DNA from: Patescibacteria group bacterium
Lineage (GTDB): Bacteria; Patescibacteriota; CPR2; UBA1875
Reading direction: 5' to 3'
Assembly (NCBI GenBank): GCA_041737595.1
Contig: JBGSRK010000111.1
Span: forward strand, 1-13,364
Length of the DNA stretch: 13,364 nucleotides
A program made the translations under genes and the position numbers. Of the stretch, positions 137-2,564 are shown one piece after another (position 1 is the first letter of the stretch; each line of letters begins with the position of its first letter). The notes beneath the pieces are model-generated. The model searched no databases, was not told the origin of the DNA, and saw nothing but the letters and a program-made list of their open reading frames with translations.

Positions 137-165
137 TTGACTCTGGCACACAACTGTGTCACACT
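137..165 (+). promoter_or_regulatory. Sigma70-type promoter with operator-like palindromes
   Basis: TTGACT (137-142), 17-nt spacer, TG at 157-158, CACACT (160-165). Overlapping inverted repeats ACACA-N2-TGTGT (148-159) and GTGT-C-ACAC (156-164). Predicted +1 near 171-172. Confidence 0.65.
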
Positions 166-170
166 CCCCC

Positions 171-375
171 TGGTGACCCGGGAGCGATGCGTCTGGTACC
201 AGAGCGATCAGAACAGCTCGTATCCGCCGCAAGTCGTCGTAAAAGACCTTGTCAGCGACGAGCCCCGGACATGACTGTGGTTAGCTCAGTCAGGAGAGCC
301 CGCGTTCGTACGCGGAGACGTCGGTGCAAATCCGGCACGCAAGATGTCCCGGGTGCGGAAACGGCAGGGTCACCA
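171..375 (+). ncRNA. Putative structured ncRNA (~205 nt) containing a tRNA-like domain
   Basis: 9-bp terminal helix TGGTGACCC (171-179)/GGGTCACCA (367-375) beginning at the predicted +1. Internal helices: TCTG-gtac-CAGA (192-203), TCGTCG/CGACGA (234-239/256-261), GGACAT/ATGTCC (267-272/344-349). Embedded D-arm and T-arm. Confidence 0.6.
275..343 (+). tRNA. tRNA-like element (pseudo-tRNA or tRNA mimic; probably non-decoding)
   Basis: TA-GCTC-AGTCAGGA-GAGC D-arm (282-299); hairpin CCGCGT-tcgt-ACGCGG (300-315) in the anticodon position but without a 7-nt loop; AGAC variable region; T-arm GTCGG-TGCAAAT-CCGGC (320-336); imperfect acceptor stem and no CCA directly after it. Confidence 0.55.
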
Positions 376-403: not shown

Positions 404-457
404 CCCGGAAGGGATCGAGAAGGGCCGATGAGCGGCCTGGTCCCCGGAAGGGATCGA
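404..457 (+). repeat. 15-bp direct repeat CCCGGAAGGGATCGA (two copies), each forming a CCC-GGAA-GGG GNRA hairpin
   Basis: Copies at 404-418 and 443-457, enclosed by the inverted repeat CATGTCGA (396-403)/TCGACATG (454-461). Confidence 0.8.
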
Positions 458-458
458 C

Positions 459-626
459 ATGGCTGGCGACAAGAAGCATCGCCGGGGCGGGAAGACGAAC
501 CGCAAGCACCGCCGCAATGACCGCTGGGGTGGAACGGATCATTCCGTGACGAAGTACCGGATGCGGCACAACATCGACCCCAACAAGAAGCGCCGGAAGG
601 GAACCAGCGAAAAGGACAACGGGTGA
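459..626 (+). CDS. Small Lys/Arg/His-rich protein (55 aa), possibly nucleic-acid binding
   Basis: Not in the ORF track. Translates MAGDKKHRRGGKTNRKHRRNDRWGGTDHSVTKYRMRHNIDPNKKRRKGTSEKDNG; GAAGGGA upstream; GC-rich third positions; stop overlaps the next start (GTGA). Confidence 0.7.
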   Translation: MAGDKKHRRGGKTNRKHRRNDRWGGTDHSVTKYRMRHNIDPNKKRRKGTSEKDNG

Positions 627-853
627 AGATTCTCAGCGTCCGGGCATTCCGGGCTCATATCTCAACCGTTCAGGAGCCCGTCACCGTCATCAGGTATTCC
701 AAGGTCATCGGGGTGTGGACACCGAGCCATGAGGCAGATCGAGCAGATGTGGACGCTCAACGTCCAGGACGGGAAGAACTACTTCCTGATGGAGGAGGAG
801 AACGGGCAGATCCGGACGGGGATCTGCCACGCGAGCGTCACGACCCGGGGTAG
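623..853 (+). CDS. Phd/YefM-like antitoxin-type DNA-binding protein
   Basis: N-terminus MKILSVRAFRAHISTVQEPVTVIRYSKVIGVWTP follows the Phd/YefM pattern (M.TIS.REFR..LS...EPV.ITR.GK.V.V..P); AAGGA RBS; charged tail overlaps the next ORF. Confidence 0.5.
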   Translation: MKILSVRAFRAHISTVQEPVTVIRYSKVIGVWTPSHEADRADVDAQRPGREELLPDGGGERADPDGDLPRERHDPG

Positions 854-2200: not shown

Positions 2201-2243
2201 TGCCGCACACCCGTGCGGTGTCCTCGAATGAGCGAGGTTGCTG

Positions 2244-2564
2244 ATGGAGACGTCGTATCTCTACCAGCGGAAGTTCTCGGCAGGACACGCCCTCGAGCGT
2301 TGCAGTAACCGCCCACATGGTCACGATTTCACGGTGACCGTGGCGTTTCGTGCAGAAAGTCTGGCCGGAGAGGCAGCCCTCGACGGCTGTATTGCCGAAA
2401 TTGATCTCCGGAATCTCGCCGAAATGCTTCCGGCTGTTCCGCCCACCTGTGCGGGAATTGCCAATTGGCTGTTCGGGCGGCTGCGTTCGGAGGGCCCCGT
2501 CACCCGGGTCACGGTGTGGCAGTCCATGGAAATCGGAGCGGAGGTTACCGAAACCCCGTTATGA
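2244..2564 (+). CDS. queD: QueD/PTPS-like T-fold protein (divergent 6-carboxytetrahydropterin synthase family)
   Basis: FSAGHAL..C...HGHDFTVTV matches the F.AAH.L..C..HGH.Y.V.V signature; PT...IA and V.VW also present; GAGG RBS before ATG 2244. Confidence 0.8.
   Translation: METSYLYQRKFSAGHALERCSNRPHGHDFTVTVAFRAESLAGEAALDGCIAEIDLRNLAEMLPAVPPTCAGIANWLFGRLRSEGPVTRVTVWQSMEIGAEVTETPL

What the first reader, a model, noticed from the sequence alone, without database searches (positions are those of the whole stretch)
137..375. Promoter-driven ~205-nt phage ncRNA carrying an anticodon-less tRNA mimic
Seen: a good promoter whose predicted +1 coincides with the 5' arm of a 9-bp helix (171-179/367-375) that closes the whole segment. 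Inside are a near-canonical D-arm and T-arm in normal tRNA order. The anticodon arm is instead a perfect 6-bp stem with a 4-nt loop, and the imperfect acceptor stem continues into another helix (267-272/344-349) rather than ending in CCA. Competing pairings exist (ACCCGGGA 176-183/TCCCGGGT 347-354; GCTCGT 216-221/ACGAGC 258-263). Known: YrlA Y RNAs mimic tRNA but are circularly permuted; tmRNA keeps an aminoacylatable acceptor; GOLLD RNAs are much larger. None fits by eye. Inference: the tRNA elbow is kept while decoding and charging are lost, suggesting a decoy or scaffold, for example for tRNA-targeting defence enzymes, RNase P/Z or ribosome-associated factors.
Basis: partly seen in the sequence, partly recalled or inferred. 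Interest (0 to 1): 0.8.

Follow-up and report, generated by a model that had tools for sequence, protein, structure and literature searches.

The report
Phage RNA scaffold carrying tRNA-like arm
This is a small, tightly folded RNA gene shared by a handful of uncultivated high-GC phages; in this phage one arm has been swapped for a tRNA look-alike with no anticodon loop, and the RNA's job is still unknown.

Summary
Window 171-375 (205 nt) is closed by the 9-bp helix 171-179/367-375. It contains a cloverleaf-like segment at 275-343, with a D arm, a T arm and a 6-bp/4-nt hairpin in place of the anticodon arm. ARAGORN finds no tRNA. Rfam's tRNA model scores 25.5 bits, below its 29-bit cut-off, and no other Rfam family matches.

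The main new result is that this RNA belongs to a wider phage RNA family of 10 distinct sequences, 116-205 nt long. The family has five helices (P1-P5). On the alignment, 94.6% of cells are paired against 80.6% in shuffles, and 25 pairs carry compensatory changes (0 of 500 shuffles reach either value).

The tRNA-like part is not the conserved core. It sits on P5, an arm that ranges from a bare hairpin to about 85 nt. It is tRNA-like in only 2 of 10 members. A 90%-identical relative carries an unrelated insert in its place.

Six of 10 members have a TANNNT hexamer 5-9 nt upstream of P1, so transcription probably starts at P1. Two members point against all neighbouring genes, which argues for a stand-alone RNA rather than a leader.

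Best reading: a stable, trans-acting phage RNA scaffold with an exchangeable cargo arm. Its function is unknown, and the decoy idea was not tested.

The parts
137..165 (+). Promoter-like region: TTGACT 137-142, 17-nt spacer containing the short inverted repeat ACACA..TGTGT, TG 157-158, and the -10-like CACACT 160-165 ending 5 nt before P1
   Evidence: Read. Conserved in L037 and L039. Not found by the consensus scan. At family level, 6 of 10 members have TANNNT 5-9 nt upstream of P1, P about 2e-10; the window itself is not one of the 6.
171..179 (+). P1 5' strand (closing helix)
   Evidence: Pairs with 367-375. In the family, 6 of 9 pairs carry changes on both sides and 96.6% of cells are paired.
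180..188 (+). J1/2 strand GGGAGCGAT, unchanged in 8 of 10 distinct members
   Evidence: Alignment A5.
189..205 (+). P2 hairpin (189-195/200-205, loop GTAC); 192-203 is a perfect 12-nt palindrome
   Evidence: 5 of 6 pairs carry changes on both sides. Palindrome read.
206..215 (+). J2/3 strand containing the conserved AGAAC
   Evidence: Alignment A5.
216..227 (+). P3 5' strand (long-range helix with 355-365)
   Evidence: RNAalifold. 96% of cells paired, with one pair changed on both sides (C-G to G-C in L037).
234..261 (+). P4 hairpin (234-240/255-261) with an inner 2-bp P4b (241-242/249-250), hexaloop AAGACC (AAGTCC in 7 of 10 distinct members) and the bulge GTCA 251-254
   Evidence: 3 of 7 pairs carry changes on both sides. 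The P4b pair 241/250 is A-U, G-C or C-G in 9 of 10 distinct members.
262..272 (+). P5 base, 5' strand (pairs with 344-354, with a C266/C350 mismatch)
   Evidence: 5 of 9 pairs carry changes on both sides. Fold.
275..343 (+). tRNA-like cargo on P5: acceptor-like 275-281/337-343 (4 of 7 pairs), D arm 284-299, short hairpin 300-315 (6 bp, loop TCGT), T arm 320-336; no CCA
   Evidence: Rfam tRNA 25.5 bits, below the 29-bit cut-off. ARAGORN finds none. The minimum-energy fold is a cloverleaf on a stalk.
344..354 (+). P5 base, 3' strand
   Evidence: See the P5 5' strand entry.
355..365 (+). P3 3' strand, GCGGAAACGGC, inside the near-invariant GGGTGCGGAAACGGCAGG
   Evidence: All 6 contigs found independently through the 5' motif also carry this 3' motif.
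367..375 (+). P1 3' strand

Best explanation
Window 171-375 is a gene for a stable, structured, stand-alone phage RNA. It belongs to a family that is not in Rfam 15. Transcription probably starts at or next to the first base of P1, so both RNA ends are locked in a G+C-rich closing helix. Inside are a hairpin (P2) and a long-range helix (P3) that encloses two arms (P4 and P5). The conserved function lies in the invariant core: the J1/2 strand, the AGAAC junction strand, the P4 hexaloop with its GUCA bulge, and the GGAAAC internal loop of P3. I infer that this core binds a protein or RNA partner in trans. P5 is a surface arm that tolerates and exchanges inserts. In the window's lineage it carries a tRNA-derived cloverleaf joined through its acceptor stem, with the anticodon loop cut down to 4 nt and no CCA. 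This cloverleaf probably arrived by recombination with the phage tRNA genes that lie directly after the RNA in its closest relatives. Shown: the family, the fold, the variable arm, the swapped cargo, and a -10 signal at family level. Inferred: action in trans, the existence of a partner, and any role of the tRNA-like cargo (recruiting or titrating a factor that reads tRNA shape, or no role at all).
For: Family: 10 distinct sequences match covariance models R1 and R2 end to end, at 55-127 bits with R2 and one hit per contig.

Fold: 94.6% of cells are paired against 80.6 +/- 1.2 in shuffles, and 25 pairs are changed on both sides against 14 +/- 2 (0 of 500 shuffles reach either). Slid controls give 32-42% paired and 2-8 such pairs. 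G-U pairs fall on this strand, for example G262-U354 in all 10.

Transcription start: a TANNNT hexamer lies 5-9 nt upstream of P1 in 6 of 10 members, against a background of 1% per position.

Variable arm: total length runs from 116 to 205 nt and the differences lie largely in P5.

Cargo swap: the window and L037 are 83% identical upstream and 90.7% identical downstream, yet their inserts cannot be aligned. All 4 laid sequencing runs carry the L037-type insert.

tRNA link: real tRNAs start 4 nt (L005: Leu, Gln) and 8 nt (L037: Tyr) after P1.

Stand-alone: in G404 (L032) and G403 (L027) the RNA sits in an intergenic gap and points against every neighbouring gene. No protein family is shared by more than 2 of the 8 phage lineages in the held DNA. 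Phages that share tail genes (L008, L032) carry the RNA at different places.

Structure kept in the cargo: between the window and L005 the T stem and the short hairpin keep pairing through changes on both sides.
Against: In 8 of 10 members the next gene runs in the same direction. In the window, L005, L037 and L013 the RNA heads the long rightward operon, so a role in cis is not excluded. No terminator or defined 3' end was found. No partner has been identified. The family is small, and 7 of its 10 members were found through one exact 16-mer, so conservation of the P3 3' strand is partly a result of how members were found; the independent 5'-motif scan only partly removes this. Alignment A5 was fitted to the model, which favours the model's pairs. 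The window's own -10 (CACACT) is not TANNNT, and the consensus scan finds no promoter. Evidence of expression is limited to assembled metatranscriptome contigs from one study, which cannot show RNA ends or levels.
Confidence: 0.55

Rival explanations
1. It is a cis-acting leader element at the head of the late or packaging operon. It could be a put-like RNA that modifies the transcribing polymerase, or a riboswitch-like aptamer. In either case it would act only on its own transcript.
For: The RNA begins at the inferred transcription start. In the window, L005, L037 and L013 it lies between divergent leftward genes and a long rightward operon that includes ParB, TerS, TerL and portal genes. In 8 of 10 members the next gene is co-directional. 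Invariant junction strands combined with variable peripheral arms are typical of aptamers.
Against: Two of 10 members (L032/G404, L027/G403) point against all neighbouring genes. In L005 and L037 tRNA genes sit between the RNA and the first open reading frame. The distance to the next start codon varies from 2 to about 100 nt or more, with no shared terminator or ribosome-binding-site-sequestering element. A 9-10-bp G+C-rich P1 is a poor switch helix. No Rfam riboswitch matches.
Confidence: 0.2
2. The tRNA look-alike is the functional part: a decoy or scaffold for host factors that recognise tRNA shape, such as RNase P or Z, the CCA-adding enzyme, modification enzymes or tRNA-targeting defence nucleases. 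The rest of the RNA serves only as a frame.
For: The window and L005 keep a cloverleaf with a shortened 'anticodon' hairpin even though the insert sequences are not alignable by blastn, and the T stem and hairpin carry compensatory changes. The D-arm sequence is conserved between the two. Phage tRNA genes are adjacent in relatives.
Against: 8 of 10 family members have no tRNA-like arm while the core stays near-invariant. L037/L039 replaced the arm with an unrelated insert, and that form is the one seen in all 4 laid runs. L005's D and T loops lack the usual elbow letters, and Rfam's tRNA model does not match it at E up to 10. With no anticodon loop it cannot decoy anticodon nucleases, and with no CCA or free acceptor end it cannot be charged.
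Confidence: 0.12
3. The tRNA-like segment is a decaying tRNA pseudogene, or a sequencing or assembly artefact, that happens to lie in an intergenic region.
For: The tRNA score is below threshold. The acceptor stem has 3 mismatches. ARAGORN is negative. The tRNA-Tyr gene next door is present or absent among close relatives.
Against: The segment is embedded exactly in arm P5 of a covarying RNA. A second lineage (L005) has the same architecture with a short loop and compensatory changes. The window-type sequence is held at 0.98 and 0.83 of sampled words in two runs, although one of them may be the source sample.
Confidence: 0.04
4. The conserved core is a small catalytic RNA, either self-cleaving or acting on tRNA, and the linked or adjacent tRNAs are its substrates.
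For: The core has invariant unpaired strands and a multi-junction fold. It is associated with tRNAs or a tRNA-like arm in 4 of 10 members. Real tRNAs begin 4-8 nt after P1.
Against: No match to any Rfam ribozyme or RNase P model at E up to 10. Six of 10 members have no tRNA nearby. No cleavage evidence exists.
Confidence: 0.05

Closest known systems
GOLLD and ROOL RNAs (large phage and prophage RNAs)
   Same: They are encoded by phages and prophages, are often near tRNA genes, have no known protein partner, and tRNAs are sometimes present inside a variable GOLLD linker. These points come from passages I read in bioRxiv 10.1101/2024.12.08.627333 and NAR 2017 PMC5737381. Here real tRNAs directly follow the RNA in 2 of 10 members, and a tRNA-like domain sits in the variable arm in 2 of 10.
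   Different: This RNA is 116-205 nt, against about 580 to over 800 nt for ROOL and GOLLD. There is no Rfam match to either. The fold is different. Oligomer formation was not tested here; the palindromic P2 is only a hint.
YrlA-type bacterial Y RNAs
   Same: Both are modular non-coding RNAs in which a closing stem carries a tRNA-like module that cannot be charged. The description of YrlA is recalled, not drawn from any call.
   Different: In YrlA the tRNA-like module is permuted, with the ends leaving through the anticodon stem (recalled). Here the order is D arm, short hairpin, T arm, and the ends leave through the acceptor stem. No Rfam Y RNA family matches. No Ro/Rsr gene was seen among the proteins scanned, but not all ORFs were scanned.
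tRNA (Rfam RF00005)
   Same: The D arm, the T arm with a 7-nt loop, a 4-5-nt variable region and the arm order are the same. The match covers the whole model at 25.5 bits.
   Different: The score is below the 29-bit cut-off. The loop has 4 nt instead of the 7-nt anticodon loop. The acceptor stem has 4 of 7 pairs. There is no CCA and no free 3' end. ARAGORN is negative.
tmRNA
   Same: Both are stable RNAs that contain a tRNA-like part.
   Different: ARAGORN's tmRNA search is negative. The tRNA-like part here is internal and not formed by the RNA's two ends. There is no tag reading frame and no chargeable end.
Candidate structured RNAs catalogued from IMG/VR (Comput Struct Biotechnol J 2023, PMC10690425)
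   Same: That study mined IMG/VR intergenic regions for covarying structures of 29-151 nt and reports tRNA-like candidates (passages read). The short members of this family could be among its 8495 entries.
   Different: I could not check this. The main text names no motif with these features.

Membership tests
tRNA (RF00005) | Score at or above Rfam's gathering cut-off, and detection by ARAGORN | tested here: not met
   25.5 bits against 29. ARAGORN finds 0 genes at default and relaxed thresholds.
tRNA (RF00005) | 7-nt anticodon loop on a 5-bp stem | tested here: not met
   6-bp stem 300-305/310-315 with the 4-nt loop TCGT. L005 has a 5-bp stem with a 5-nt loop.
tRNA (RF00005) | 7-bp acceptor stem ending in a free discriminator-CCA end | tested here: not met
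   4 of 7 pairs. The strand continues into helix 267-272/344-349 and there is no CCA.
tRNA (RF00005) | D arm and T arm in canonical order | tested here: met
   for the window, and by eye for L005. Not met in L037.
YrlA / bacterial Y RNA | Match to an Rfam Y RNA model | tested here: not met
   No such match at E up to 10 or at the gathering cut-off.
YrlA / bacterial Y RNA | Neighbouring Ro/Rsr gene | not tested
   Only some ORFs were scanned. None was Ro-like.
tmRNA | tRNA-like domain formed by the 5' and 3' ends, plus a tag reading frame | tested here: not met
   ARAGORN's tmRNA search is negative. The tRNA-like part is internal.
GOLLD / ROOL | Match to the Rfam model, and size of about 580 nt or more | tested here: not met
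   No Rfam match. Length is 116-205 nt.
GOLLD / ROOL | Phage or prophage location near tRNA genes, with tRNA inside a variable region | tested here: inconclusive
   All members are on viral contigs or in a presumed prophage. A tRNA lies within 10 nt in 2 of 10 members and within 500 nt in 3 of 10. A tRNA-like arm is present in 2 of 10.
Cis-regulatory leader / riboswitch | Always directly upstream of, and co-directional with, the regulated gene, with an expression platform | tested here: not met
   2 of 10 members point against all neighbours. No shared platform was found.
Retron msr-msd RNA | Adjacent reverse transcriptase gene | tested here: inconclusive
   No reverse transcriptase among the scanned neighbours. 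Not all ORFs of all loci were scanned.
New P1-P5 phage RNA family (this report) | End-to-end match to model R2 with P1-P5 and the invariant strands | tested here: met
   The window scores 124.4 bits, E 2.2e-23, but it is one of the sequences the model was built from.

The most novel reading that the evidence does not exclude
This is a miniature counterpart of the giant phage RNAs GOLLD and ROOL. It would be a self-associating RNA scaffold that pairs with itself through the perfectly palindromic P2. In 7 of 10 members P2 is a palindrome, with self-complementary loops GUAC, GCGC or UGCA. The scaffold would display an exchangeable cargo on P5. In this phage the cargo is a tRNA body without anticodon or CCA, which would capture or mislead a host factor that reads tRNA shape during infection. 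The rapid swapping of the cargo between phages that are 90% identical would then be the trace of an arms race.
Probability: 0.1. Interest if true: 0.85.

Novelty: new variant of a known kind. Interest (0 to 1): 0.62.

Why it matters
The finding adds a compact RNA fold, well supported by covariation, to the short list of phage RNAs that are physically linked to tRNAs. At 116-205 nt it is far easier to study than GOLLD or ROOL. It also comes with a natural experiment: the same core is found with no cargo, with unrelated cargo and with a tRNA-like cargo. If the tRNA-like arm is functional, this would be a new way of presenting a tRNA body, joined through the acceptor stem with decoding and charging removed, and it would bear on how phages deal with tRNA-directed host functions. 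If the arm is only a recombination scar, the family still provides a new phage RNA of unknown function with a clear set of invariant nucleotides to mutate.

Tried and rejected
Known-family ideas. By recall I considered RNase P-like motifs, twister-sister and HDV-like ribozymes, SRP RNA, 6S RNA, T-box and several riboswitch classes. I dropped all of them because five Rfam scans at E up to 10 (window, L027, L023, L005, L037) gave only the sub-threshold tRNA hit and noise. A retron was dropped because no reverse transcriptase was seen among the scanned neighbours.

Chance matches. L006 (read) and L057-L059 are coding-region matches. Of the 30 hits to the 16-mer, 21 have no model match at E up to 0.001.

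Isolate collections. The whole window gave no megablast match among phage isolates. The window RNA against phages gave only 20-nt chance matches. The L023 RNA against phages gave nothing. The L027 RNA against phages and plasmids gave only partial matches (40% coverage or less, E 0.08 or higher), almost all under annotated coding genes.

Host genomes. In the presumed host phylum the RNA model matched 1 of 9 genomes in the order strongly, with the others at 18.3 bits or less. It matched 1 of 25 in the class and 1 of 151 in a phylum sample. The 17-mer pattern matched 1 of 401 genomes. In every case the hit was G001. This means not found in the genomes searched, not absent. BLAST of the window's and L037's P5 inserts against G001 gave no informative donor.

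Window's assembly. The genome holding the window was no help. Contig C127 has 61.6% G+C against 32-37% for the large contigs, so it is a mis-binned phage contig.

Sequencing runs. Parts of the window without contig cover say nothing. The RNA contig that begins at window position 179 (run X10) and the one that ends near 155 are compatible with a start near P1, but contigs cannot show RNA ends.

Partner protein. An all-against-all comparison of ORFs from the held DNA found no protein family shared by more than 2 of 8 phage lineages. Only parts of most contigs were held.

Claim that it is not in print. This rests on four searches and on passages from three papers.
Full report
OBSERVATION.
- The closing helix is 171-179/367-375, 9 perfect pairs.
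- The helix 267-272/344-349 is present.
- There is a D-arm-like hairpin (284-287/296-299, 8-nt loop) and a T-arm-like hairpin (320-324/332-336, 7-nt loop).
- Between them sits a perfect 6-bp stem with a 4-nt loop (300-305/310-315).
- The acceptor-like stem (275-281/337-343) has 4 of 7 pairs and no CCA.

ARAGORN finds no tRNA or tmRNA in the window, nor in the element at relaxed thresholds. Rfam at gathering thresholds finds nothing in the window. At E up to 10 on 100-480, the tRNA model matches 275-344 over its whole length at 25.5 bits, below the 29-bit cut-off (E 0.0034), and nothing else credible appears. The 211-nt segment folds better than its shuffles (z = -3.0) with the closing helix in the minimum-energy structure.

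The promoter is weaker than claimed. The consensus scan finds none. By eye there is TTGACT, a 17-nt spacer, TG and CACACT, ending 5 nt before P1.

WHERE THE WINDOW COMES FROM. The window is a whole 13.4-kb contig with 61.6% G+C, sitting in a bin whose large contigs have 32-37%. It is therefore a mis-binned phage contig. It encodes ParB-like, small and large terminase and portal proteins, all on the + strand. It has no megablast match among 50,697 phage isolates.

HOMOLOGS. Three routes gave relatives of the RNA.
- Large-terminase relatives in IMG/VR gave L005. There, window 175-265 and 351-371 are 92% and 95% identical, while the stretch between them does not align by blastn.
- The 55-aa basic protein just downstream led to the metagenome locus L037. 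A gapped core motif led to L039, which lies 1.77 Mb into a 5.97-Mb scaffold of a Planctomycetota MAG. This is presumably an integrated prophage; I did not map its borders. L037 and L039 are identical over the RNA.
- An exact 16-mer from the 3' strand hit 30 IMG/VR stretches. A covariance model built from the first four sequences (R1) matched 8 of them at E below 0.001: L023, L029, L032, L013, L027, L021 and L022 at 38-116 bits, and L008 at 17.9 bits. A ninth hit, L007, is the L005 contig. The remaining 21 are chance matches.

A separate scan with a 5' motif returned 6 contigs, all already found and all carrying the 3' motif. A third motif added only 3 chance coding matches. In total there are 10 distinct sequences (L029 = L023; L039 = L037), with one copy per contig.

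Nothing was found in phage isolates or plasmids. Among sampled Planctomycetota only G001 was hit: 1 of 151 with the model and 1 of 401 with a 17-mer.

STRUCTURE. RNAalifold on the first four sequences gave P1-P5. On the 11-row alignment A5 (10 distinct rows):
- 94.6% of cells are paired, against 80.6 +/- 1.2 in shuffles.
- 25 pairs are changed on both sides, against 14 +/- 2.
- 0 of 500 shuffles reach either value.
- Sliding the partners by 1-3 columns gives 32-42% paired and 2-8 such pairs.

Pairs changed on both sides, by helix: P1 6 of 9, P2 5 of 6, P3 1 of 10, P4 3 of 7, P5 5 of 9.

Caveats apply. A5 was fitted to the model. In addition, the P3 3' strand was the search bait for 7 members.

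An extra pair inside the P4 loop (window 241/250) is A-U, G-C or C-G in 9 of 10 distinct rows. It defines a hexaloop (AAGUCC in 7 of 10 rows, AAGACC in the window) and an invariant GUCA bulge. G-U pairs lie on the + strand, so the RNA is read in this direction.

The 3' partner of 176-183 differs in L005 and L037. The partner of 216-221 covaries with P4 and not with 216-221 in the seven members outside the window's clade.

START OF THE RNA. A TANNNT hexamer ends 5-9 nt upstream of the first P1 base in 6 of 10 members, against a 1% background in the same loci (binomial P about 2e-10). The window and L037 have CACACT at that place, with TTGAC(T/A) 17 nt upstream.

THE tRNA-LIKE PART IS A CARGO ON P5. 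Total length runs from 116 nt (L027) to 205 nt, and the differences lie largely in P5. P5 is a bare hairpin in L027 and L021, carries 26-48 nt in L013, L023 and L032, and carries about 82-85 nt in the window, L005 and L037.

Only the window and L005 show a cloverleaf. L005 has a perfect 6-bp acceptor stem, the same D-arm sequence, a 5-bp stem with a 5-nt loop, and a 5-bp T stem. Its T stem and short hairpin differ from the window's by changes on both sides. However, Rfam's tRNA model does not match it at E up to 10, and its D and T loops lack the usual elbow letters.

L037 is 83% identical to the window upstream and 90.7% downstream, yet it holds an unrelated 85-nt insert with no Rfam match. 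At that level of relatedness this is a cassette swap, not drift. All 4 laid runs carry the L037-type insert.

L013 is a syntenic but distant relative (large terminase 65%, portal 62% identical). It has only a 26-nt hairpin in P5. The tRNA-like cargo therefore arose within the window's clade.

In that clade real tRNA genes start 4 nt (L005: Leu, Gln) and 8 nt (L037: Tyr) after P1. The window differs from L037 by an indel of the tRNA-Tyr gene bounded by the repeat CACCA.

CONTEXT. In the window, L005, L037 and L013 the RNA lies between leftward genes and the long rightward operon. In L023 a GerE/sigma-70-region-4 protein starts 2 nt after P1.

In G404 (L032) the RNA sits between the tail chaperone genes and the tape-measure gene but on the opposite strand. 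In G403 (L027) it also points against all of its neighbours. No protein family is shared by more than 2 of the 8 lineages in the DNA held. Phages that share tail genes carry the RNA at different places. This is the behaviour of an independent, movable transcription unit.

ECOLOGY AND EXPRESSION. Eleven runs from 7 studies hold part of the stretch: hot spring or biofilm (window type), soil, freshwater sediment and wetland. Two wetland metatranscriptome runs from one study contain contigs over the RNA. Contigs cannot show RNA ends, strand or level.

COMPARISON WITH KNOWN FAMILIES. By test this is not a tRNA, a tmRNA, a Y RNA, GOLLD or ROOL.

In behaviour it is closest to GOLLD and ROOL. Those are phage RNAs near tRNA islands, and tRNAs are sometimes found inside a variable GOLLD linker (passages read). 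It is 3-7 times smaller and unrelated in sequence.

Its modular design, a closing stem plus a tRNA-like module that cannot be charged, recalls YrlA. That comparison is from recall. The order of the arms is not permuted here.

A catalogue of 8495 IMG/VR candidate RNAs exists (passages), but its tables were not open to me.

MECHANISM. My best reading (confidence 0.55) is a stable stand-alone RNA whose invariant core binds a partner in trans, and whose P5 arm carries exchangeable cargo. The tRNA-like cargo probably came from the neighbouring tRNA genes. Whether it recruits a factor that reads tRNA shape is open.

Rivals are a cis-acting leader (0.2), a tRNA decoy as the main function (0.12), a ribozyme (0.05) and a pseudogene or artefact (0.04).

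One unexplained feature is that P2 is a perfect palindrome in 7 of 10 members, with self-complementary 4-nt loops of three kinds. This would allow self-pairing between two RNA molecules.

VERDICT. The finding is a new, rare phage RNA family with a swapped-in tRNA-like arm. Interest 0.62.

Noticed in passing
window 192-203 (P2), and the same place in L005, L037, L023, L032, L013 and L021: P2 is a perfect 10-14-nt palindrome in 7 of 10 family members. Its 4-nt loops are themselves self-complementary (GTAC, GCGC, TGCA), which an ordinary hairpin has no need for. It could allow RNA dimers, or it could be a DNA-level site.
   Followed up: partly
window 375/376 compared with L037 3825-3917: The window lacks the tRNA-Tyr(gta) gene that follows the RNA in L037 and L039. 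The 92-nt difference is bounded by the repeat CACCA, which is both the end of P1 and the 3' end of the tRNA. This points to recombination at the tRNA-like ends. The direction of the event (gain or loss) is not known.
   Followed up: partly
whole window (contig C127 of G000): The contig has 61.6% G+C, while the large contigs of the 1.09-Mb bin have 32-37%. It is a phage contig placed in the wrong bin. A near-identical element lies in a Planctomycetota MAG.
   Followed up: yes
window 459-626: A 55-aa, very basic protein (Lys/Arg/His-rich) is conserved in L037 (98% identical) and L005 (69-71%). It has no Pfam or PHROG family. It is the first gene after the RNA in this clade only.
   Followed up: partly
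window 405-418 and 444-457: The direct repeat CCGGAAGGGATCGA occurs twice between the RNA and the basic-protein gene, flanking a GGCCG/CGGCC hairpin (423-437). The first copy is degenerate in L037. An ATG at 397 behind a strong Shine-Dalgarno sequence opens a frame that L037 stops after 4 codons.
   Followed up: no
window 2238-2564: The ORF matches 6-pyruvoyl tetrahydropterin synthase/QueD (Pfam PTPS, E 9e-9), just upstream of the ParB and terminase genes. It is conserved in L005, and an ORF at the same place in L013 looks similar by eye. No other 7-deazaguanine pathway gene was looked for.
   Followed up: no
L037 1041-1511 (- strand), about 2 kb upstream of the RNA: A 156-aa protein combines a coiled-coil N-terminal part with a match to the C-terminal domain of ribosomal protein L7/L12 (Pfam E 1.7e-10).
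   Followed up: no
window 623-853 and L013 2194-2316: The ORF starting at 623 has homologs in L037, L005 and L013. In L013 it begins 16 nt after the RNA. In the window its 3' part overlaps the better-supported ORF 729-953, so its true end is unclear.
   Followed up: no
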